Origin: Parcubacteria group bacterium
GTDB taxonomy: Bacteria > Patescibacteriota > Minisyncoccia > Moranbacterales > UBA9337
Length of the DNA: 64,000 bases
Direction of reading: 5' to 3'
Assembly: GCA_041662245.1 (NCBI GenBank)
Contig: JBAZSW010000004.1
Location: 75,454 to 139,453, forward strand
Part shown: positions 2,965-61,537 of the stretch, one piece after another
Layout of the letters: every line of letters begins with the position of its first letter
Position numbering within the stretch: position 1 is the stretch's first letter
Program-made: the position numbers and the translations under genes
The notes under the pieces: model-generated
Databases searched by the model: none
The model's input: the letters and a program-made list of their open reading frames with translations, nothing else
What the model was told of the DNA's origin: nothing

Positions 2965-3037
2965 GAAAAATTAATTTCTATTTTTTAGTTTTAAATTTTA
3001 AATCAAATTTCTATTTTTCAATATTTAGAAAATAAAA

Positions 3038-9720: not shown

Positions 9721-9765
9721 CATTTAGTCATTCATTTGAAATTCCAAATTTTAAATTTGAAATTC
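9721..9765 (+). repeat. dispersed AT-rich repeat copy (plus orientation), right flank of the cassette; abuts the rnhB stop
   Basis: CATTTAGTCATTCATTTGAAATTCCAAATTTTAAATTTGAAATTC. Confidence 0.6.
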
Positions 9766-9766
9766 T

Positions 9767-10552
9767 TTAAGCTTTCCATCTATCATTAATCGCATTTCTA
9801 ACAGGAGCAAATGTTTTGCGGTGAATTTTACAAGGACCATTTTGTTTTAATGCTTCAATATGAATTTTAGTGCCATAACCCTTGTGTTTGGCAAATTGAT
9901 AGGCGGGATATTCTTTATCAAACTTATTCATTATCCTATCTCGCGTAACTTTGGCAATTATAGAAGCAGCTGAGATTGATTTTACTAATTTATCACCGCT
10001 AATTATTGCTTTTTGCTCTAGCGAAAAATTAGGAATCATTTTGTCCCCATCTACTAAAATTATTATTTTTTTCTGCTCTTTAATTTGAGATTTTAAATCT
10101 CCAATTGCTTTTTTCATTGCTAGAAATGTCGCCTCCAAAACATTTATTCTATCTACCGTTTCGTGATTACAAATCCCCACTCCCACATAAAAATTTTCCA
10201 TAATAAATCCAAAAACCTCCTCTCGTCTTTTCTCGCTCAATTTTTTAGAATCTCTGATTAAATCCCACATCCTTTCCTCTCCCCCTCTCCGAGGGGGAGA
10301 TGTCCGAAGGACAGAGGGGGTGTTTCCTATTTTTTTATCATTTGAATTTGATTTGAAATTTGAAATTTGAAATTTTGAATTCCGAACCACTACCGCCGCT
10401 GCCACTACTGGTCCGGCCAGCGGTCCCCTGCCTGCCTCGTCCACACCCACCACAAAATCCCAACCTTTACCAAAAAGATCTTTTTCTAATTCAAACCTGT
10501 CAATCGCAACTGACGGGTTCAAAGTAGATTCTAATTTTACTTTATTTTTCAT
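9767..10552 (-). CDS. rnhB: ribonuclease HII carrying an in-frame insertion of about 40 aa
   Basis: VVGVDEAGRGPLAGPVVAAAVVV catalytic motif and DSKKLSEKRREE; 261 aa vs about 200 typical; extra segment RNSKFQISNFKSNSNDKKIGNTPSVLRTSPPRRGGEERMW lies between these two motifs. Confidence 0.9.
   Translation of the reverse strand: MKNKVKLESTLNPSVAIDRFELEKDLFGKGWDFVVGVDEAGRGPLAGPVVAAAVVVRNSKFQISNFKSNSNDKKIGNTPSVLRTSPPRRGGEERMWDLIRDSKKLSEKRREEVFGFIMENFYVGVGICNHETVDRINVLEATFLAMKKAIGDLKSQIKEQKKIIILVDGDKMIPNFSLEQKAIISGDKLVKSISAASIIAKVTRDRIMNKFDKEYPAYQFAKHKGYGTKIHIEALKQNGPCKIHRKTFAPVRNAINDRWKA
10265..10384 (-). repeat. about 120-nt composite element inserted in-frame in rnhB: GC-rich hairpins plus a TTGAAAT tandem-repeat module
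   Basis: coding-strand hairpins GTCC-TTCG-GGAC and CTCCCCCTC-GGA-GAGGGGGAG; TTGAAAT x4; absent from E. coli and B. subtilis RNase HII at this position. Confidence 0.7.
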
Positions 10553-12450: not shown

Positions 12451-12493
12451 CCTGCCTACCGGCAGGCAGGCTTCCCTTGCTAAGGGCAAGGGG
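12451..12493 (+). promoter_or_regulatory. two adjacent GC-rich hairpins in the dnaE leader
   Basis: CCTGCC-TACC-GGCAGG and CCCTTGC-TAAG-GGCAAGGG, 36 nt before the dnaE ATG in a 30% GC context. Confidence 0.45.
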
Positions 12494-12528: not shown

Positions 12529-15500
12529 ATGGAAAACGACCCTCAAACAATCAAACCTACTAATAAATTTACTCATCTTCATGTTCATAGTCACTATTCA
12601 TTACTGGATGGGCTAGCTAAAATTGATGATCTTCTAAAAAGAGCTAAGGAATTAGGCATGGACTCGCTAGCACTGACCGATCACGGAGTGATGTATGGAA
12701 TTGTAGAATTTTTTATTAAAGCCAAAGAAGCAGGCATTAAACCCATTATTGGTTGTGAAATGTATCTTACTCCCGCTAGTCGTACCAGCAAAAATAACAC
12801 CGCTGAAGATAAAACTCGTTATCATTTAACTCTCTTGGTTAAGAATGAAAAAGGCTACAAAAACTTAATGAAATTAGTTTCCGTTGCTCATCTGGAAGGT
12901 TTTTATTATAAACCTCGTATTGATAAAGAAATTTTAGAAAAATACTGCGAAGGATTAATTTGTATGAGTGGTTGTGTCCAAGGAGAAATTCCTCAAACTA
13001 TTATTAAAAAAACATATGAAGAAGCCAAGGAAATAGCTCTTTGGTATGATAAAATTTTTGGTCGAGGAAATTTCTATATGGAGTTGCAACACCATCCAGG
13101 ACAAGCTGATCAAAAGTTTGCTAATGGAGGTATGATTCAAATATCCAAAGAAACTGGCATCCCTGTAGTCGCCACAGGAGATATTCATTATACCAAAGCG
13201 GAAGATGCTGAAACTCAAGACATCCTTCTTTGTATTCAGATGAATAGAAAGGTTCATGAAAAAAACAGACTGAGCTTAATGGACTTTCATCTCTATATGA
13301 AATCACCCGAAGAGATGGAGGAATTTTTTAAAGATGTTCCCAATGCCGTTAGCAACACCCAAGAAATAGTAGCTAAATGTAATTATGATATTCCCTTGGG
13401 AGAAATTCAACTTCCTTATTTTGAAGTACCCAAAGAGTTCGATGATAAAAGCTACTTGAGATATTTGACCCAAAAGGGTCTTGAAGAAAAATTTGGAGAC
13501 AAAATTACTGACAAGCACCGCGAAAGAATGGAATACGAACTTTCCATTATTGAAAAAATGGGATATTCTCCCTACTTTTTAATCGTTCAAGATTTTGTTA
13601 ACTGGGCTAAACAGCAAGGAATCGTGGTGGGTCCCGGAAGAGGAAGCGCAGCAGGAAGCTTCGTTTCTTATTTGGTGGGAATTACCAATCTTGATCCAAT
13701 TAAATATGATTTGCTTTTTGAAAGATTCCTAAATCCCGAAAGAGTTTCGATGCCTGATGTTGATATGGATTTCGCTGATGATAGGCGCGACGAAGTTTTA
13801 GATTATGTGAGAAAAAAATATGGTGATGATCATGTGGCTCAAATTATTACTTTTGGAACAATGGCGGCTCGTGCAGCCATTCGCGATGCAGGACGTGCTT
13901 TGGATTATCCTTATGACTATTGCGATAAAACAGCCAAGATGATTCCTATGTTTTCCACTATCGCCGAAGCATTAGAGGATGTGCCAGAATTTAGTAATTT
14001 TTATAATTCAGATAAAGATGCTAAAAAATTAATTGATAGTGCTAAAAATTTAGAAGGAGTTTGTCGACATGCTTCTATGCATGCTTGTGGAGTAGTAATT
14101 ACCAAAGAGCCTGTTACTAATTATTCTCCCCTTCAAAAAATTATTGGCAAAGAAGATGGAGTAGTAACTCAATATTCTTCTTCAACTAAAAGTAGCTACG
14201 TGGAAAAAATTGGCCTACTCAAAATGGACTTTTTGGGACTAAAAAATTTAACCATCATTCAAAATGCTATCAACATTATTGAAAAAACCAAAGGAGTTAA
14301 AATAAATATTGATGATATCCCTCTAGATGATGAGGCTACTTATAAACTATTGCAAGCTGCTCATACCACAGGAGTATTCCAGTTGGAATCCTCAGGCATG
14401 AAGCGTTATTTAAAACAACTCAAACCCAACAATCTCGAAGATGTAATTGCAATGGTGGCATTATATCGTCCCGGACCAATGGACTGGATTCCTGATTTTA
14501 TTGACAGAAAGCACGGACGAAAAAGGATTGAATACATTCATCCTAAATTGGAACCCATCTTAAATAAAACTTATGGAGTAGCTGTTTATCAAGAACAAGT
14601 GATGCAAATGGCTCAAAGCTTAGCAGGTTATTCCTTAGGGGGTGCTGATATGCTCAGGAAAGCGATGGGTAAAAAAATTCCCGAATTAATTCAGAAAGAA
14701 AAAATTAAATTCATTGATGGAGCTGTACAAAACGGAGTTAACAGAAAAGATGCCGAAAAAATATTTGCCTTTATTGAGCCTTTTGCAGGCTACGGATTTA
14801 ATCGTAGTCATGCCGCTTGTTATGCTCTTGTTGGTTACCAAACGGCTTATCTCAAAGCCCATTATCCAGCGGAATTCATGGCTGCTTTAATGACCTCTGA
14901 CCAAGGCAACATCGAAAGAATCGCTATTGAAGTGGAGGAATCTCAAGATATTGGAATTGCAGTTTTACCACCTAACGTTAATGAAAGTTTTGGGGAATTT
15001 GCCGTAATTAAAAGTGAAAATGACAAAGTAAATATTCGCTTTGGTTTGAAAGCTATTAAAAATGTAGGCCATACTGTGGCTGATGAAATTGTTAAAGAAA
15101 GAAAACGAAATGGAAAATACAAATCCTTGGCCGATTTCTTAGAAAGAGTTATTACAAAAGATTTAAACAAAAAATCTATTGAAGCATTGGCTAAAGTGGG
15201 TGCGTTAGATGATTTAGGGGAAAGAAACCAAATTATCGAAAACATTGAAATTATCTTGAATTTTTCCAAAAGTATTCAAAAAATAAACAATGCCAATCAA
15301 GATAATCTTTTTGGCGCAATGGAAATAAAAACTCCTGCCATCAAATTAGCGCTAACGATTCCCGCTACCAAAAATCAAAGGTTACATTGGGAAAAGGAGC
15401 TTTTAGGATTGTATGTTTCTGATCATCCTATTTCTGAATACAAATATTTTTTTGAAAAAATGACCACTCCAATTTCATCACTAGATAATTCCATGGTTGG

Positions 15501-16035
15501 CAAAAGTGTTAAGGTAGGAGGAGTAATTACTAAAGTACAAAGAATCATGACCAAGCGAAAGCAAAACATGGCTTTTGTCACCATTGAAGATTTAAGAGGG
15601 AGAATCGAGCTTTTGGTTTTTCCTTTTGTCCTAGAAACCACGGGAGCGGTTTGGCAAGAAGAAAAAATAATTTTAGCTGATGGAAAATTATCCGATAAAG
15701 ATGGCTCATTTAAATTAATTGTTGATGATGCTAAAGTGGTTGATGATGCCGAGATGAATAAATTTAAAAGAATCTTAGTTACTCAAGAAAAAAATAATCG
15801 TCCGATTTCTCAAATTGACGTCTCTAAAATGATTATCACTTTTCCTAAATCTGCCAGCAAAAGCACCATAGGCAGACTTTCTAAATTATTCGATTCTTGC
15901 ACATTAGGGAAAACTTTGATTTTCCTTTATATTAACGGCACTAAAATACAAACCAACTACAGCTTGCAACTAGACGATGCCTTGATGGAAAAAATAAAAG
16001 AAATTATCCCCAAAGGAGAATTTAAAATGGAATAA
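12529..16035 (+). CDS. dnaE: DNA polymerase III alpha subunit
   Basis: PHP domain HLHVHSHYSLLDGLAKIDDL; polymerase core; OB-fold near the C-terminus. Confidence 0.95.
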   Translation: MENDPQTIKPTNKFTHLHVHSHYSLLDGLAKIDDLLKRAKELGMDSLALTDHGVMYGIVEFFIKAKEAGIKPIIGCEMYLTPASRTSKNNTAEDKTRYHLTLLVKNEKGYKNLMKLVSVAHLEGFYYKPRIDKEILEKYCEGLICMSGCVQGEIPQTIIKKTYEEAKEIALWYDKIFGRGNFYMELQHHPGQADQKFANGGMIQISKETGIPVVATGDIHYTKAEDAETQDILLCIQMNRKVHEKNRLSLMDFHLYMKSPEEMEEFFKDVPNAVSNTQEIVAKCNYDIPLGEIQLPYFEVPKEFDDKSYLRYLTQKGLEEKFGDKITDKHRERMEYELSIIEKMGYSPYFLIVQDFVNWAKQQGIVVGPGRGSAAGSFVSYLVGITNLDPIKYDLLFERFLNPERVSMPDVDMDFADDRRDEVLDYVRKKYGDDHVAQIITFGTMAARAAIRDAGRALDYPYDYCDKTAKMIPMFSTIAEALEDVPEFSNFYNSDKDAKKLIDSAKNLEGVCRHASMHACGVVITKEPVTNYSPLQKIIGKEDGVVTQYSSSTKSSYVEKIGLLKMDFLGLKNLTIIQNAINIIEKTKGVKINIDDIPLDDEATYKLLQAAHTTGVFQLESSGMKRYLKQLKPNNLEDVIAMVALYRPGPMDWIPDFIDRKHGRKRIEYIHPKLEPILNKTYGVAVYQEQVMQMAQSLAGYSLGGADMLRKAMGKKIPELIQKEKIKFIDGAVQNGVNRKDAEKIFAFIEPFAGYGFNRSHAACYALVGYQTAYLKAHYPAEFMAALMTSDQGNIERIAIEVEESQDIGIAVLPPNVNESFGEFAVIKSENDKVNIRFGLKAIKNVGHTVADEIVKERKRNGKYKSLADFLERVITKDLNKKSIEALAKVGALDDLGERNQIIENIEIILNFSKSIQKINNANQDNLFGAMEIKTPAIKLALTIPATKNQRLHWEKELLGLYVSDHPISEYKYFFEKMTTPISSLDNSMVGKSVKVGGVITKVQRIMTKRKQNMAFVTIEDLRGRIELLVFPFVLETTGAVWQEEKIILADGKLSDKDGSFKLIVDDAKVVDDAEMNKFKRILVTQEKNNRPISQIDVSKMIITFPKSASKSTIGRLSKLFDSCTLGKTLIFLYINGTKIQTNYSLQLDDALMEKIKEIIPKGEFKME

Positions 16036-16043
16036 AATTAAAT

Positions 16044-16069
16044 TCCGAGCGCCCAATTGGGCGCTCGGA
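16044..16069. terminator. perfect 11-bp palindromic hairpin between convergent dnaE and HAD gene
   Basis: TCCGAGCGCCC-AATT-GGGCGCTCGGA; U-run present on minus-strand side. Confidence 0.65.
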
Positions 16070-16087: not shown

Positions 16088-16780
16088 CTATTTATTAAAA
16101 TATTCAATCACTTTTCTAAAGTCATCTGCGATTAAATCTGCTTTTTGAATAACTTTCTCACGAGATATATTTTCTGTATAAGCGATAAATTTACCCACAA
16201 CACCAAATTCCTTAGTTTGATAATCTGTCCATCCATCCCCCACCATAATCAATTCTCCCTCTAAATTGAGAATTTTTATTTGATTAACTTTACCATTGTC
16301 CTGAGCCATTAAATTTTTGCCATTGACTCCGATTAAATTATTCCTATTGTCAAAGATAAATTCATTAGCTAAAATATTTTTTTCAGGAATACCTAGTAGA
16401 TTGATCGTTGGTAAAATTAGATCTTTAAACCCTCCTGAAATAATAAAAATATTTTCTTTATTATTTTTAAAAAAATCTAGATTATCTAAAACTGAACATG
16501 ATAGTTCTCTTTGAATAAAATCCGCTACTTCCGAAACAGTTTTTTTATTCGTTTTAATTAATTCAATTCTCCTTCTTAAAGATTCTGGAAAAGAAATTTC
16601 TCCGTTCATTCCAGATTGAGTTATCTCTTTAATTTTACTAACTATTTCATCTTTATTTTTATTTTCTATTAAAGCTATCTCCGCTAGCAGATCTAGCGTT
16701 TCGATTTTTACGAGTGTACTATCGAAATCAATGATTAATTTTTTCATATTTAAGAAAGTAGACAATCTTATAACCCCCAT
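16088..16780 (-). CDS. HAD-superfamily hydrolase, phosphoserine phosphatase-like
   Basis: motif I DFDSTL; C-terminal GDGWTD. Confidence 0.7.
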   Translation of the reverse strand: MGVIRLSTFLNMKKLIIDFDSTLVKIETLDLLAEIALIENKNKDEIVSKIKEITQSGMNGEISFPESLRRRIELIKTNKKTVSEVADFIQRELSCSVLDNLDFFKNNKENIFIISGGFKDLILPTINLLGIPEKNILANEFIFDNRNNLIGVNGKNLMAQDNGKVNQIKILNLEGELIMVGDGWTDYQTKEFGVVGKFIAYTENISREKVIQKADLIADDFRKVIEYFNK

Positions 16781-35896: not shown

Positions 35897-38107
35897 TTAT
35901 GCAACGGGATAAATCCGACGGGGCTTCGCTTTATCTTTTTTGTCATTGGAATTTTTATCGCTATCGGCTATCCTTGCTCTTTCTAATATTTTAACAACAC
36001 CTCGCTCAGCATCCACTTCCACCAAATCTCCATCGTGCAAAACTTGCGTGGCGATTTTGGTCCCGATTATACAAGGTTTTTTAAGTTCGCGAGCCACAAT
36101 GGCAGCGTGACAAGTTATACCACCTTCATCAGTCACAAAAGCACCAGCTTTTTTCATAATAGACATGTATCTTGGATCCGTCATAGACGCAACTAATATT
36201 TCTCCTTCTTGAAAATCTTTTGCCTCTTTAATTAATTTTATAATTCTCACTTTCCCTTTTGCCTTGCCCACACGAGCAATGCTTCCTTTTATTTCATCTA
36301 AACTATATTTTTTATTTCTTGTCTTGTCGATTTCATCTAATATTTTACCTGACTTATTTTGAGAAATAGTTTCTATTCCTTCTTTAGAATATTTGCAAAA
36401 GAAAAAATCTTTGCGTTTTAAATAATTATTAGGTAGCTCACCTGAATTTATAAAAGCATCAAGTTCCTCCCCGCTTAGATATTCTAAAGAATCTTTTTCA
36501 ATATTTTTTTCTTCTTCTATTTTATTCAACAATTCTCTTTCCAAAGTTATTCCATCTCTATGAATATTTTCATATCTTTTTCTTGTTTCTATACACAAAT
36601 CTTTTGTTTCCTGACTCAAGTCATCGAGATATTCTGGAGCATAAACTGATACCATAATAATAGCAAACAATTCTTGTATAAAGTTATGAAGTTTTTTAAT
36701 AGATTTTGTCAGATCGACCTGATTATTTTTGAAAAACTCTTCAGCTTCTAAAAGTTTTTTATTATTTTTTGCAATAAATCTTTTATAGTCATCAATATCA
36801 TTTTTTTGAAAATATGCCTTTGGGATTCCCTTATAATCAACTACCGGCAAAAAATGATAAAATATTCCATTTTCCATCAGAGAATACCAAGGATTTGTCA
36901 TGTAATTAGTCACTCTTTCAAAACTGTCACCAAAAACTTCTCTTGCTATAACAGAAGCAATTAATATAGTGTAATCCCTCTGATGTTTTTCATAGATTAA
37001 ATTTTCTTTCTCTACATACTTCATTAAAGTCGTTATCGGTCGACTTTGGGTGATATAAAATTTTCCACCTTCCTGCGCCCATTCGATATCGCAGGGAAAG
37101 CTGTAATGGTTTTCGATTTTGATGATTAAATCTGAAAGTTCGATAATTTCTTTTTCGTTTAATACTTGAGAAGAAGCTTGAGGTTCAGGGATATCTCGCC
37201 ACTCGTTGGCTGAGATTTCTCCACTTCCAAATCTTTGAGTACAAAGATTTGTTCGGTCGAAATGACATGCTCTATATAATCCTCTGTTTTGCGTGCTGAC
37301 ATTAATATCAACAATCGCTTCTCTAATTCTTAATTCATCATTCTTGATTCCCAACTCCTCATTCTTAATTCTTAATTCATAATTCTTAATTCCAGTCTTA
37401 TCCACCACATAACTGTCCGGGGTAACTGATCCCGATACAATTGCTTCGCCAAGTCCAAAGCCTGCTTCAATGATAAGCTGGTTATAATCTTGGGTCACTG
37501 GATGCACCGAAAAAGCGATACCTGATTTCTCAGATTGAATCATTTTTTGCACCACCACTGCTACCGATATTTTCTGCTTGTGCAATTCTTTTTCAAAACG
37601 ATAGAAAATGGCCCGCGAAGTGAAAAGCGATGCCCAGCATTTTTGGACATTTTTTAATAAATCTTTTTCTGTTGTATTAAGATAAGAATTAAGTTGTCCC
37701 GCCCAAGCCGCCTCAGCTCCGTCTTCAGCGGTGGCACTGGATCTTACAGCAACAAACTCTGCGTCTAGTTTTTTAAATTCTTTTTCAACTTCTTTCTCAA
37801 TCTCTACTGGAATTTTTGCTCCAAGAATTAAAGCTTGGATTTTTTCTGACGCTTTTTCAACCGTATGCATTTTTTGCGTATCCACTGTGTCAAGGATAGC
37901 GGAAATTTCCACATTTAAATCAGTTATTTCTAAAAATTTTTCAAAAGCCCCAGCAAGTACCACAAAACCCGAAGGAACTGGATTGCTAGCAGACTTGTCC
38001 GCCGAAGCTTTAGCGAAGGCGGAAGTCATTTCGCCAAGGGACGCTCCCTTGCCTCCGGCAATCAGAACATCGTTCTTATCTAATTCTTTAAAATTTTTAG
38101 TAAACAT
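35897..38107 (-). CDS. PEP-utilising-enzyme family protein: PPDK-type ATP-grasp N-terminus plus C-terminal phospho-His swivel domain; no PEP/pyruvate TIM-barrel (PEP synthase-like or rifampin phosphotransferase-like architecture)
   Basis: N-term GGKGASLGEM; C-term GGITCHAAIVARELKKPCIIGT; contains a 21-nt tandem repeat encoding ELRIKNE / ELGIKND / ELRIRE. Confidence 0.75.
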   Translation of the reverse strand: MFTKNFKELDKNDVLIAGGKGASLGEMTSAFAKASADKSASNPVPSGFVVLAGAFEKFLEITDLNVEISAILDTVDTQKMHTVEKASEKIQALILGAKIPVEIEKEVEKEFKKLDAEFVAVRSSATAEDGAEAAWAGQLNSYLNTTEKDLLKNVQKCWASLFTSRAIFYRFEKELHKQKISVAVVVQKMIQSEKSGIAFSVHPVTQDYNQLIIEAGFGLGEAIVSGSVTPDSYVVDKTGIKNYELRIKNEELGIKNDELRIREAIVDINVSTQNRGLYRACHFDRTNLCTQRFGSGEISANEWRDIPEPQASSQVLNEKEIIELSDLIIKIENHYSFPCDIEWAQEGGKFYITQSRPITTLMKYVEKENLIYEKHQRDYTILIASVIAREVFGDSFERVTNYMTNPWYSLMENGIFYHFLPVVDYKGIPKAYFQKNDIDDYKRFIAKNNKKLLEAEEFFKNNQVDLTKSIKKLHNFIQELFAIIMVSVYAPEYLDDLSQETKDLCIETRKRYENIHRDGITLERELLNKIEEEKNIEKDSLEYLSGEELDAFINSGELPNNYLKRKDFFFCKYSKEGIETISQNKSGKILDEIDKTRNKKYSLDEIKGSIARVGKAKGKVRIIKLIKEAKDFQEGEILVASMTDPRYMSIMKKAGAFVTDEGGITCHAAIVARELKKPCIIGTKIATQVLHDGDLVEVDAERGVVKILERARIADSDKNSNDKKDKAKPRRIYPVA
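37315..37395 (-). repeat. tandem repeat of about 21 nt (about 3.5 units) inside the PEP-utilising enzyme gene
   Basis: plus strand shows repeated ATTCTTAATTC; protein shows heptad units ELRIKNE-ELGIKND-ELRIRE. Confidence 0.6.
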
Positions 38108-51526: not shown

Positions 51527-51588
51527 CATTAAGTCATTATTGAATTATAAATTCATTCGAAATTCAAAATTGGAAATTCAAAATTTAA
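51527..51588 (+). repeat. dispersed AT-rich repeat copy
   Basis: CATTAAGTCATT...AAATTCATTCGAAATTCAAAATTGGAAATTCAAAATTT. Confidence 0.6.
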
Positions 51589-57481: not shown

Positions 57482-58306
57482 TTATCTCATCACCGCCACT
57501 CCAATAATAATTATTGCCAATACCAACCGATACCAAAAAAATGTTTTATAACTATAATTTTCAACAAATTTAATCAGATATTTTATAGCAACATAACCAC
57601 TAAAGGCCGAAAAAATAATTCCCATTAAAATTTCACTACTAATTCCAGCTTTCATTAATTCTGGAATTTTAGTAAGAGTAGCTCCAAAAATTATCGGGGT
57701 TGAAAGTAAAAAAGAAAATCTGGCCGCACTCACCCTATCTAATCCCATTGCCAATCCAGCTGAAATGGTCGCTCCTGAACGAGACACCCCAGGGATAATT
57801 GCCACCGCCTGAGAGAGTCCAATGATTAAAACGTCTTTAATATTTATTTTATCTAATTGTCTTTTTCCTAAAGCGTATTTATCTAATAAGAATAAAACTA
57901 ATCCAAAAAAAGCTAAGGCAAAAGCAATTATATAGGGACTGCGAAAAATAGTTTCTACATAACTTTCTAAAAAAAATCCAATCACTGCTCCGGGAATTGT
58001 GCCAATCATAAGTAACCACAAAATATTTTTATTATACGAACAGGCCAGTGCCCTATCCCTACCTTCACATTTTTTATTGTAGGAACGGGGTAGTACCCCG
58101 TTCTTAAAAATTTCCACCCAATCTTGCCAAAAATAAATTACTACCGCCAAAAGTGTCCCCGCGTGAAGTGCCACATCAAAAGCCAGTCCTGGGTCTTTCC
58201 AATGAGTAAAAAAGGGAACCGAAACAAGATGTGCCGTGGACGAAATTGGCAGAAATTCTCCCAAGCCTTGTACGATTCCTAATGTGATTGATTGCAACAA
58301 ATCCAT
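57482..58306 (-). CDS. uppP: undecaprenyl-diphosphatase with an in-frame insertion of about 15 aa
   Basis: GIVQGLGEFLPISSTAHL and PGVSRSGATI motifs; extra NKKCEGRDRALACSY encoded by a GC-rich palindrome. Confidence 0.9.
   Translation of the reverse strand: MDLLQSITLGIVQGLGEFLPISSTAHLVSVPFFTHWKDPGLAFDVALHAGTLLAVVIYFWQDWVEIFKNGVLPRSYNKKCEGRDRALACSYNKNILWLLMIGTIPGAVIGFFLESYVETIFRSPYIIAFALAFFGLVLFLLDKYALGKRQLDKINIKDVLIIGLSQAVAIIPGVSRSGATISAGLAMGLDRVSAARFSFLLSTPIIFGATLTKIPELMKAGISSEILMGIIFSAFSGYVAIKYLIKFVENYSYKTFFWYRLVLAIIIIGVAVMR
58041..58103 (-). repeat. GC-rich palindromic element inserted in-frame in uppP
   Basis: GAACGGGGTA-g-TACCCCGTTC near-perfect palindrome, plus CCTAC...GTAGG stem, in a 30% GC gene. 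Confidence 0.7.
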
Positions 58307-58830: not shown

Positions 58831-58976
58831 TTTAATTTTAAATTTGAAATTTAGATTCAAATTCTAATTTATTAATTTTTCAAATATTTAAAATTTATTT
58901 TCTGAATTATTTTTTAACCTTATAATTTTAATCATTAAAAATTCATTTGAAATTCAAAATTTGAAATTTGAAATTT
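58831..58976. repeat. two copies of the dispersed AT-rich repeat (58831-58870 and 58941-58976)
   Basis: AATTCATTTGAAATTCAAAATTTGAAATTTGAAATTT and AAATTTGAAATTTAGATTCAAATTC. Confidence 0.6.
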
Positions 58977-61497: not shown

Positions 61498-61537
61498 AAA
61501 AAATTTTGAATTTCAAATTTTGAATTTTGATTCAAGT
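61498..61537 (-). repeat. dispersed AT-rich repeat copy (minus orientation)
   Basis: reverse complement GACTTGAATCAAAATTCAAAATTTGAAATTCAAAATTTT. Confidence 0.55.

What the first reader, a model, noticed from the sequence alone, without database searches (positions are those of the whole stretch)
58041..58103. uppP contains an in-frame GC-rich palindrome (GAACGGGGTAgTACCCCGTTC)
UppP retains both signature motifs, but has about 15 extra residues (NKKCEGRDRALACSY) encoded by a 21-nt near-perfect palindrome plus an adjacent CCTAC...GTAGG stem. The insertion falls where many UppP sequences have a short cytoplasmic loop.
Basis: seen in the sequence. Interest (0 to 1): 0.7.

Follow-up and report, generated by a model that had tools for sequence, protein, structure and literature searches.

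The report
REP palindrome pair inside uppP
The GC-rich palindrome inside this Parcubacteria uppP gene is a pair of small REP-type selfish DNA hairpins that landed in frame in a flexible cytoplasmic loop of the enzyme, a known kind of event seen here in a phylum where it does not appear to have been described.

Summary
The palindrome GAACGGGGTAgTACCCCGTTC is real (58083-58103) and not a chance feature. It lies in frame in uppP (57482..58306, minus strand). It is one half of a head-to-head pair of GTAG-tagged stem-loops covering 58038-58103 (66 nt, 22 codons).

In a relative's contig (L001, UppP 74% identical) the same pair sits at the same position. Five more copies lie just after the uppP stop codon and in frame inside the next gene. 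That gene is a RAYT-like Y1 transposase.

Fourteen units from seven contigs, aligned with GTAG first, keep the 9-bp stem in 96% of cells. Six of the nine pairs show compensatory changes.

The insert codes for the cytoplasmic H3-H4 loop. That loop varies widely in length in Patescibacteria and is low-confidence in an AlphaFold model. Both catalytic motifs are intact.

- The palindrome encodes KNGVLPRS, not NKKCEGRDRALACSY.
- The excess is 10 residues over the closest relatives and 9 over E. coli.

No transposase and no further copy was found in the 64-kb window. Intragenic REP dimers are already documented, so this is a new member of a known kind.

The parts
57482..58306 (-). uppP (undecaprenyl-diphosphatase, BacA family), 274 aa, host gene of the insert
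   Evidence: ORF. Pfam BacA E 2.6e-79 over profile 2-257 of 257. E. coli BacA 5OON/6CB2 E 3e-31. Identical to NCBI MFA6184106.1 'MAG Parcubacteria group bacterium'.
58038..58103 (.). Whole REP head-to-head dimer (REPIN/BIME-like): unit A, tag A, 16-nt spacer, tag B, unit B. It is 66 nt = 22 codons, in frame, and encodes residues about 68-90 of UppP.
   Evidence: Coordinates read. GTAG plus stem-loop scan. mRNA-strand fold shows two hairpins, z = -3.05. AlphaFold model has pLDDT 52-57 for residues 71-90 against 85.6 overall.
58083..58103 (+). REP unit A stem-loop, GAACGGGGT-agt-ACCCCGTTC.
   Evidence: Built from nine consecutive minor codons (each 0.11-0.30 of its synonymous family), so the nucleotide sequence rather than the peptide is what is constrained.
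58079..58082 (+). GTAG tag of unit A (read as CTAC on the coding strand, within codons TCC TAC)
   Evidence: The tag is GTAG in 12 of 14 aligned family units (A6).
58063..58078 (.). 16-nt A-rich spacer between the two tags (coding strand AATAAAAAATGTGAAG)
58059..58062 (-). GTAG tag of unit B (on the coding strand)
58038..58058 (-). REP unit B stem-loop, degenerate: GGATAGGGC-act-GGCCTGTTC (6 Watson-Crick pairs, 2 G-T pairs and 1 mismatch on the tagged strand)
   Evidence: Homologous to L001 unit B, GTAG-GAACAGGGC-att-GCCCTGTTC.

Best explanation
The palindrome is half of a head-to-head dimer of GTAG-tagged REP elements. Each unit is a short single-strand hairpin with a 5' GTAG tag, of the kind mobilised by RAYT (IS200-like Y1/HUH) transposases. 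The dimer sits in frame in the part of uppP that codes for the cytoplasmic H3-H4 loop.

**Shown**
- Two tagged stem-loops lie in inverted orientation, 16 nt apart, and add up to 66 nt (22 codons).
- The same dimer is at the orthologous site in a relative. In that relative, further copies of the same family lie intergenically and inside an adjacent RAYT-like gene.
- The stem is kept by compensatory changes across 14 copies, and it is kept best on the GTAG-bearing strand.
- The encoded residues fall in a hypervariable, low-confidence loop, away from both catalytic motifs.

**Inferred**
- A RAYT inserted the units as single-stranded DNA hairpins in an ancestor of these Moranbacteria-like lineages.
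- The insert survived because its length is a multiple of three, it has no stop codon in this frame, and the loop tolerates extra residues.
- It is now translated as a passive, disordered stretch of UppP.
- In the window's genome it is probably a vertically inherited relic. Unit A is still perfect and unit B is decaying.
- Any effect on the mRNA, such as a local hairpin plus a run of rare codons slowing ribosomes, would be a by-product.
For: **Anatomy**
- GTAG 58079-58082 (+) is followed by a perfect 9-bp stem with a 3-nt loop. GTAG 58062-58059 (-) is followed by a stem with 8 of 9 positions paired.
- About 0.28 such units are expected per window, and P(2 or more) = 0.017.

**Orthologous copies**
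- Copies lie at the same loop position in L001 (two perfect units), L002 (one unit) and L003/L090/L091 (a degenerate unit).
- Gene order CorA-YidD-YkuD-UppP is conserved.

**Dispersal**
- L001 holds 7 units in 1.67 kb.
  - Two are in the uppP loop.
  - A tail-to-tail dimer starts at the uppP stop codon, whose TAG is the TAG of a GTAG tag.
  - A dimer and a single unit lie in frame inside ORF 1112-1672.
- The variant GAACAAGGCAATGTCTTGTTC-CTAC occurs in the L001 transposase gene. It recurs in the uppP loop of L002, differing only at the first base of the stem.
- A related unit, GTAG-AGACGAGGC-acc-GCCTCGTCT, is intergenic in L086.

**The neighbouring gene is RAYT-like**
- Pfam Y1_Tnp scores 24.8 bits, above the cut-off of 23.
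- The only NCBIfam hit is REP_Tyr_transpos, E 2e-18.
- The only PDB hit is E. coli TnpA-REP 4ER8, with the HUH and WQPRF motifs aligned.
- Removing the REP-encoded residues turns the NCBIfam match into one continuous stretch.

**Hairpin maintained**
- With 14 units aligned GTAG-first, 96.0% of cells are paired and 6 of 9 pairs have changes on both sides. None of 500 shuffles reaches this, and slid registers give 44-52%.
- On 8 uppP units the coding-strand pairing is 94.4% against 76.4% for the complement.

**Nucleotide-level constraint**
- Unit A is nine consecutive minor codons.

**Tolerant site**
- Loop length ranges from 33 to 64 residues.
- pLDDT is 52-57 for residues 71-90.
- The H3-H4 loop is cytoplasmic.

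**Precedent**
- GTAG REPs, head-to-head and tail-to-tail dimers, REP-flanked RAYT genes, GTAG tags supplying stop codons, and intragenic REP dimers encoding 20-30 residues are all described in PMC3733652.
Against: - **Copy number in the window.** The two units in uppP are the only copies in 64 kb, and there is no RAYT homologue (tblastn). High copy number and transposase linkage are therefore shown only in a relative whose UppP is 74% identical.
- **Quality of L001.** It is a single 1.67-kb contig from a read-archive assembly, and repeats can cause mis-joins.
- **Strength of the RAYT call.** The NCBIfam score (65-67 bits) is below the curated cut-off of 80. The ORF is cut by the contig end.
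- **Phylogeny.** Carriers are not monophyletic in a rough NJ tree. That requires several losses, several gains or recombination, and the tree is too poorly resolved to choose.
- **An alternative origin for unit A.** A 45-nt direct repeat extends 12 nt beyond the stems (TACAATAAAAA / TATAATAAAAA). Unit A in the window could be a local tandem duplicate of unit B plus the YNK codons rather than a separate insertion.
- **Strand asymmetry.** The excess of G-T pairs on one strand could partly reflect strand-biased mutation, because the coding strand is G+T-rich.
Confidence: 0.78

Rival explanations
1. The insert is a functional mRNA element of uppP. A conserved hairpin, together with a run of rare codons, would be selected to pause ribosomes about 70 codons into the message, when the first re-entrant helices have emerged. 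Alternatively it would stabilise or process the operon transcript. On this reading the palindrome is maintained for the host's benefit, whatever its origin.
For: - The coding-strand RNA folds into two hairpins, z = -3.05.
- Compensatory changes occur, and G-U pairs fall preferentially on the coding strand: 94.4% paired against 76.4% on the complement.
- Unit A consists of nine consecutive minor codons.
- REPs elsewhere are reported to act as RNA elements (PMC3733652).
Against: - The same stem-loop occurs in intergenic DNA and inside a transposase gene in L001, so its conservation does not depend on uppP.
- Most close relatives, at 70-78% identity, lack it entirely.
- Unit A has its tagged strand antisense to the gene.
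- The folding energy is not exceptional within the gene.
- There is no Rfam match and no terminator-like tail.
Confidence: 0.1
2. The feature arose locally with no mobile element involved. The loop-coding DNA would have expanded by tandem duplication of 45 nt (51 nt in L001). Quasi-palindrome template switching during replication would then have made the arms perfect. On this reading the GTAG tags are accidents of the Ser-Tyr and Arg-Arg codons.
For: - There is a direct repeat of period 45 nt, 22 of 28 identical, reaching beyond the stems.
- There is only one locus in the window.
- Other Patescibacteria fill the same loop with simple heptamer arrays that plausibly grow by slippage.
Against: - The same tagged stem-loops lie at three other places in L001, next to and inside a RAYT-like gene.
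- One variant is nearly identical between different loci of different genomes, differing at one base of the stem.
- The tag is GTAG in 12 of 14 units, which local duplication would not produce at unrelated loci.
Confidence: 0.08
3. The extra residues form a selected protein feature of UppP, for example a Cys-containing cytoplasmic motif (CEG...ACSY) used for regulation or partner binding. The palindrome would then be incidental.
For: - A motif of the form N-x-A-x-P/S-C-S-Y recurs in four UppP lineages.
- Two Cys residues are present in a protein family that is otherwise poor in them.
Against: - The same peptide (ENKAMSCSY) is encoded by a REP copy inside the unrelated transposase.
- The codon choice is the opposite of what peptide-level selection in this AT-rich genome would give.
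- The region is low-confidence in the model.
- It is absent from most close relatives.
Confidence: 0.03

Closest known systems
GTAG-tagged REP elements, REP dimers (BIMEs/REPINs) and their RAYT transposases (E. coli, Pseudomonas, Stenotrophomonas; PMC3733652, PMC3116915, PMC2817692, PMC3479197)
   Same: - It is a short stem-loop of 20-40 nt with an unpaired 5' GTAG tag.
- Units are paired in inverted orientation: head-to-head in uppP, tail-to-tail beside and inside the transposase gene in L001.
- Sequence variants keep the stem by compensatory changes.
- A Y1/HUH transposase gene flanked by the repeats is present in L001.
- In L001 a GTAG tag supplies the stop codon of the upstream gene.
   Different: - The host is an ultra-small, AT-rich Patescibacteria genome. 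This phylum is not among the eight listed in PMC3733652, and no paper in the searched library mentions both RAYT and Patescibacteria.
- Only one locus was found in 64 kb of the window, rather than hundreds of copies per genome.
- The location is intragenic and in frame.
- The RAYT-like gene itself carries in-frame REP copies.
- The RAYT scores below NCBIfam's equivalog cut-off.
Intragenic REPs and Rickettsia palindromic elements (Opitutus terrae GTAG REPs, R. conorii RPE families; PMC3733652, PMC10969869)
   Same: - Palindromic repeats are inserted in frame in housekeeping genes and translated as extra residues.
- Dimers encode about 20-30 amino acids. Here the figure is 22.
- Protein function is presumed to be preserved because the insert lies at a tolerant site.
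   Different: - Classical RPE-1 elements are about 100-150 bp and are present in dozens of copies.
- The host gene here is an integral membrane enzyme and the insert is in a cytoplasmic inter-helix loop.
GC-rich hairpin elements of AT-rich yeast mitochondrial genomes (GC clusters such as GC42; PMC4478555)
   Same: - Short GC-rich hairpins stand out against an AT-rich background.
- Stems are conserved more than loops.
- Elements occur as single units and tandem arrays.
   Different: - They occur in eukaryotic organelles.
- No GTAG tag and no dedicated Y1 transposase is known for them.
- They are mostly intergenic.
IS200/IS605-family single-strand transposons (TnpA Y1 transposase acting on subterminal hairpins; PMC6006769)
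   Same: - The enzyme is an HUH/Y1 transposase.
- It recognises a hairpin together with a short guide or tag tetranucleotide on one specific DNA strand.
   Different: The REP units here carry no transposase between them and are far shorter than an IS. They would have to be mobilised in trans.

Membership tests
GTAG-type REP (repetitive extragenic palindrome) | Short (about 20-40 nt) GC-rich imperfect palindrome able to form a stem-loop | tested here: met
   Unit A has a 9-bp perfect stem and a 3-nt loop (21 nt). Unit B has 8 of 9 positions paired when G-T is counted.
GTAG-type REP (repetitive extragenic palindrome) | Unpaired GTAG tetranucleotide at the 5' foot of the hairpin | tested here: met
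   GTAG lies at 58079-58082 (+) and at 58062-58059 (-), each directly abutting its stem. The tag is GTAG in 12 of 14 family units; the other two read GTAA and ATAG.
GTAG-type REP (repetitive extragenic palindrome) | Stem maintained across copies (structure rather than sequence conserved) | tested here: met
   14 units: 96.0% of cells paired, 6 of 9 pairs with changes on both sides, 0 of 500 shuffles as high, slid registers 44-52%.
GTAG-type REP (repetitive extragenic palindrome) | Many dispersed copies in the same genome | tested here: inconclusive
   The window holds only the two units in uppP, but 64 kb is a small part of the genome. The relative L001 has 7 units at three distinct sites in 1.67 kb. 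L086 has related units at 2377-2399 and 3012-3036.
GTAG-type REP (repetitive extragenic palindrome) | Extragenic location | tested here: not met
   The dimer is inside the uppP reading frame. Intragenic GTAG REPs are nevertheless documented for this family (PMC3733652), so this feature is typical rather than obligatory.
REPIN / BIME (REP doublet) | Two REP units in inverted orientation separated by a short spacer | tested here: met
   The arrangement is head-to-head with a 16-nt spacer between tags in the window. The same arrangement in L001 has a 22-nt spacer.
REPtron (RAYT gene flanked by its REPs) | A RAYT (Y1/HUH transposase) gene adjacent to REP copies of the same family | tested here: inconclusive
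   - Not found in the window or in 90 other loci (tblastn).
- In L001, ORF 1112-1672 is preceded by a REP dimer.
- That ORF matches Pfam Y1_Tnp (24.8 bits, cut-off 23) and NCBIfam REP_Tyr_transpos (66.6 bits, cut-off 80).
- It also matches PDB 4ER8 TnpA-REP at E 0.035, with the HUH and WQPRF motifs aligned.
- The ORF is cut by the contig end.
REPtron (RAYT gene flanked by its REPs) | RAYT binds and cleaves its cognate REP as single-stranded DNA | not testable with these tools
   This needs biochemistry with the L001-type protein and REP oligonucleotides.
UppP/BacA undecaprenyl-diphosphatase (host gene) | Full-length BacA domain with both conserved motifs (E/S/H motif in re-entrant loop 1, PGxSRSGxT in re-entrant loop 2) | tested here: met
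   Pfam profile 2-257 of 257 is covered. EFLPISSTAH and PGVSRSGATI are invariant in the alignment. The AlphaFold model has mean pLDDT 85.6 and pTM 0.85.
Rickettsia palindromic elements (RPE-1 type) | Element of about 100-150 bp encoding a conserved peptide, present in dozens of copies per genome | tested here: not met
   The dimer is 66 nt, each unit is 25 nt with its tag, and the window has a single locus.

The most novel reading that the evidence does not exclude
REP-RAYT systems are, or recently were, active in Patescibacteria, and in these tiny gene-dense genomes the hairpin repeats survive largely by landing in frame in tolerant protein loops.
- On this reading the H3-H4 loop of UppP would be a recurrent landing pad. 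Different lineages carry GTAG REPs, other GC-rich hairpins (L087, L088, L089) and heptamer arrays (L008-L011) at the same place.
- The window's RNase HII carries a comparable insert.
- Single-strand hairpin transposition would then be a general source of loop diversification in the proteins of this phylum.
Probability: 0.3. Interest if true: 0.6.

Novelty: new member of a known kind. Interest (0 to 1): 0.4.

Why it matters
- **Annotation.** It explains an odd GC-rich palindrome in an essential cell-wall gene without invoking a new mechanism. Extra residues of this kind in Patescibacteria proteins can be translated selfish DNA rather than functional motifs.
- **Range.** It extends GTAG REPs and RAYT-like transposases to a phylum with very small genomes and little intergenic space. 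There, in-frame insertion into tolerant loops may be one of the few ways such elements persist.
- **Practical use.** REP-encoded peptides such as ENKAMSCSY and RALPCS should be masked in alignments and phylogenies of these proteins. The UppP H3-H4 loop can be treated as an insertion-tolerant site.

Tried and rejected
- **Repeat within the window.** The exact palindrome with 3 mismatches allowed and the relaxed motif GAACNNGGN5CCNNGTTC found only the uppP copy. This first suggested a single-copy feature. That pattern was too strict and missed the extra L001 copies. A general palindrome scan later found them.
- **Known RNA family or terminator.** The only Rfam hit was a chance-level one (E 0.89). 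No terminator-like tail was found.
- **Folding energy as the test.** Minimum free energy in 40-nt windows did not single out the loop in most homologues, so this measure was dropped.
- **Tandem duplication as the whole explanation.** The 45-nt period is real. It is largely explained by two similar palindromic units, and the dispersed L001 copies argue against a purely local origin.
- **Lipobox or protein motif reading of ALACS.** Rejected because the position and spacing do not fit, and the same peptide is encoded inside a transposase.
- **Collection scans.**
  - The metagenome scan with the protein gave one relative without the insert.
  - Two viral scans for the palindromes found nothing.
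- **Protein searches.** Two searches with short loop-centred queries returned nothing, apparently because the tool needs longer queries.
- **The window's own contig.** The window's UppP is not on record in the contig index, so the rest of its 163.8-kb contig could not be fetched.
- **Monophyly of carriers.** The NJ tree was too poorly resolved to decide between gain and loss.
Full report
**1. The observation**

The window is AT-rich (32.7% G+C). Nearly all of its genes are on the minus strand. ORF 57482..58306 (-) encodes a 274-aa protein that matches the whole Pfam BacA profile (E 2.6e-79) and E. coli BacA/UppP structures 5OON and 6CB2 (E 3e-31). The identical protein is on record as UppP of a 'Parcubacteria group bacterium' MAG.

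The palindrome GAACGGGGTAgTACCCCGTTC is at 58083-58103 exactly as reported and occurs once in the window. Perfect GC-rich palindromes with stems of at least 10 bp occur three times in the window, against 0.04 expected. The other two are an intergenic terminator-like site and an insert in rnhB.

That peptide is encoded by 58034-58078.

**2. Where it sits in the protein**

HMMER aligns the region to the stretch between helices H3 and H4 of E. coli BacA. In the crystal structure paper the N terminus is periplasmic and h1-h2 is a re-entrant pair. The H3-H4 connection therefore lies on the cytoplasmic face and contains a short amphipathic helix, H3' (PMC5852022).

- The window's loop is 9 residues longer than that of E. 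coli.
- It is 10 residues longer than that of the closest relatives, which are mostly 264 aa.
- Among 120 Patescibacteria homologues the same anchored segment ranges from 33 to 64 residues, so the loop is hypervariable.
- An AlphaFold model built on 42 homologues is confident overall (pLDDT 85.6, pTM 0.85). It drops to 52-57 for residues 71-90.
- Both catalytic motifs are invariant.

**3. Two units, not one**

The repeat finder reported a direct repeat of period 45 nt (58071-58098 against 58026-58053, 22 of 28 identical). Folding the coding strand gives two hairpins (z = -3.05).

- Unit A is GAACGGGGU-ACU-ACCCCGUUC.
- Unit B is GGAUAGGGC-ACU-GGCCUGUUC and is degenerate.

Unit A is made of nine consecutive minor codons, each used for 11-30% of its amino acid in this window. 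This shows that the nucleotide sequence, not the peptide, is what is constrained.

**4. Relatives**

- DNA for the three homologues with similar loop peptides showed the same stem-loops at the same place.
  - L001 (P0002) has two perfect units, GAACAAGGC-GGT-GCCTTGTTC and GAACAGGGC-ATT-GCCCTGTTC.
  - L002 (P0003) has one unit, AAACAAGGC-AAT-GTCTTGTTC.
  - L003 (P0011) has a degenerate unit.
- Two further members of the P0011 cluster (L090, L091) carry a version in which four pairs have become G-T on the coding strand.
- The 264-aa relatives L085 and L086, and L004, lack the element.
- Gene order (CorA, YidD, YkuD, UppP) is conserved, so these are orthologues.
- In a rough NJ tree the carriers are not monophyletic, but the tree is poorly resolved.

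**5. The turning point**

A general scan for perfect GC-rich palindromes in all Patescibacteria-like loci found two more copies of the family in L001, outside uppP. Reading the sequence shows seven units in 1.67 kb.

- The head-to-head pair lies in the uppP loop.
- A tail-to-tail pair starts at the uppP stop codon: GTAG-GAACAGGGCATTGCCCTGTT tga GAACAAAGCGGTGCTTTGTTC-CTAT. The stop codon TAG is the TAG of the GTAG tag.
- A tail-to-tail pair and a single unit lie in frame inside the next ORF (1112-1672).

Each unit carries GTAG, or a one-base variant, directly at the foot of the stem on one strand.

The ORF has the following matches.

- Pfam Y1_Tnp scores 24.8 bits, above the cut-off of 23.
- NCBIfam matches only REP_Tyr_transpos (E 2e-18, 66.6 bits, below the curated 80).
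- The only PDB match is the E. coli REP-associated transposase 4ER8, with the HUH motif and the WQPRF motif aligned.
- Deleting the residues encoded by the internal REP copies turns the NCBIfam match from two pieces into one continuous stretch. This shows that those copies are insertions into the transposase gene.

**6. Back to the window**

A scan for GTAG followed by a 9-bp stem finds exactly two units in 64 kb, and both are in uppP.

- GTAG 58062-58059 on the minus strand is followed by unit B (58058-58038).

They face each other across a 16-nt spacer. The whole dimer, 58038-58103, is 66 nt or 22 codons.

About 0.28 such units are expected per window by chance, and two or more occur in 1.7% of simulations. 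That calculation takes no account of their adjacency, their inverted arrangement or their homology to the L001 family.

**7. Structure conservation**

Fourteen units were aligned with GTAG first. They come from the window, L001, L002, L003, L090, L091 and L086.

- 96.0% of cells form pairs.
- Six of nine pairs carry changes on both sides.
- No shuffle in 500 reaches the observed values.
- Sliding the partner gives 44-52% pairing.

For the eight uppP units, pairing is 94.4% on the coding strand and 76.4% on its complement. One-sided changes are mostly G-T on one strand.

This fits a hairpin that must form in one particular single strand, as for REPs recognised by Y1 transposases. Strand-biased mutation in this G+T-skewed coding strand could contribute, and the number of independent events is small (about 8 against 1).

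**8. Comparison with what is known**

Di Nocera et al. (PMC3733652) describe the following.

- GTAG-tagged REP families occur in eight phyla.
- REPs commonly form head-to-head or tail-to-tail dimers, with spacers from 1-2 to about 100 bp.
- RAYT genes are flanked by REPs ('REPtrons').
- GTAG tags can supply stop codons.
- REPs lie entirely within ORFs in several species. More than half of these are dimers or groups encoding 20-30 residues.

The present case fits that description point by point.

What is not shown for the window's own genome is high copy number and a RAYT. tblastn with the L001 protein finds nothing in the window or the other loci.

No paper in the searched library mentions both RAYT and Patescibacteria. 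The phylum may therefore be new for this element type, but the kind of element and the kind of event are not.

**9. Mechanism and its rivals**

The best-supported account is as follows.

- A RAYT-type transposase inserted REP hairpins as single-stranded DNA in an ancestor of these lineages.
- The dimer persisted in uppP because it is a multiple of three, open in this frame, and placed in a tolerant cytoplasmic loop.
- It is now translated as a disordered stretch.
- In the window's lineage it is probably a relic, with unit B decaying.

Unit A differs from every L001 variant at three paired positions, and all three are compensated. This hints that the lineage had its own evolving sub-family.

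The rivals are less likely.

- **A host-selected mRNA pause or stability element.** This is not excluded as a secondary effect. It is disfavoured because the same hairpin occurs in unrelated contexts and most close relatives lack it.
- **A purely local duplication plus palindrome correction.** This is contradicted by the dispersed tagged copies.
- **A selected peptide motif.** This is contradicted by codon usage and by the same peptide being encoded inside the transposase.

**10. Wider pattern (only partly followed up)**

Other Patescibacteria fill the same UppP loop with different intergenic-type sequences.

- L087 has a 70-nt nested GC hairpin.
- L088 and L089 have GCCTGCC...GGCAGGC hairpins. 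The same motif is intergenic at window 12451-12470.
- L008-L011 have in-frame heptamer arrays.

The window's RNase HII carries an in-frame insert of about 36-39 residues, made of a heptamer array plus two GC hairpins. These lack GTAG tags and were not shown to be mobile.

**Verdict**

The element is identified as a GTAG-type REP dimer in frame in the H3-H4 loop of UppP, which makes it a new member of a known kind.

Noticed in passing
window 10275-10390 (within rnhB, 9767..10552, minus strand): RNase HII carries an in-frame insert of about 36-39 residues (aa 58-96) where T. maritima RNase HII has 3 residues. The insert DNA is a heptamer array (AATTTCA, about 5 copies, 10340-10381), a GUCC-UUCG-GGAC hairpin, and the perfect palindrome TCTCCCCCTC-gga-GAGGGGGAGA (10278-10300). 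It has no GTAG tag.
   Followed up: partly
window 9734-9764, 51555-51585, 58834-58852, 58945-58976, 61502-61530; L008-L011 uppP loops: Tandem heptamer arrays (ATTTGAA/AATTTCA and relatives) are common in intergenic DNA of the window. Similar 7-nt arrays lie in frame in the UppP H3-H4 loop of other Patescibacteria, giving 7-residue peptide periodicity such as ISNFKFQ and KSQIPNL.
   Followed up: partly
window 12451-12470; L089 6251-6271; L088 9932-9951; L013 9052-9736: The hairpin CCTGCCTACCGGCAGGCAGG is intergenic upstream of dnaE in the window. The same motif is in frame in the UppP loop of L089, just upstream of uppP in L088, and present three times in L013. It is possibly another dispersed hairpin family.
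   Followed up: partly
window 16044-16069: A perfect 13-bp palindrome, TCCGAGCGCCCAATTGGGCGCTCGGA, lies between the convergent dnaE (12529..16035, +) and 16088..16780 (-). It looks like a bidirectional terminator.
   Followed up: no
L087 1020-1095 (uppP loop of P0078): A nested GC-rich hairpin of about 70 nt (-54 kcal/mol for the loop segment) is translated as FPHPALRATLSRRERGLGGEG in the same UppP loop of another Patescibacteria lineage.
   Followed up: no
L089 3880-3902; L086 86-107, 1078-1103, 15945-15964: A second palindrome family, CCTCCCCTT..AAGGGGAGG, occurs three times in L086 and once inside a 543-aa Radical-SAM ORF in L089. This may be another case of an in-frame hairpin insert.
   Followed up: no
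L001 1054-1057: The stop codon TAG of the relative's uppP is the TAG of the GTAG tag of the REP that follows it. The literature reports the same for GTAG REPs in other phyla.
   Followed up: yes
L086 2377-2399 and 3012-3036: Two copies of GAGACGAGGCGGTGCCTCGTCTC lie in the same orientation, about 640 nt apart, around a non-coding stretch downstream of mscL. The second carries the tag (CTAC on this strand). They share the loop GGT and the core with L001 unit A.
   Followed up: partly
window 37319-37392 (within ORF 35897..38107, minus strand): A 21-nt periodic repeat (TTCTTAA-based, about 3.5 copies of 21 nt) is read as DELRIKN heptads in a 736-aa ORF. It could be a coiled-coil-like protein repeat or another in-frame heptamer array.
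   Followed up: no
uppP genes of most loci, about nt 495-550 of the gene: The strongest 40-nt fold in many UppP genes is not in the loop. It lies in the GC-richer segment that encodes the PGVSRSGAT motif (-15 to -21 kcal/mol in many homologues). This is probably a composition effect and was not tested for covariation.
   Followed up: no
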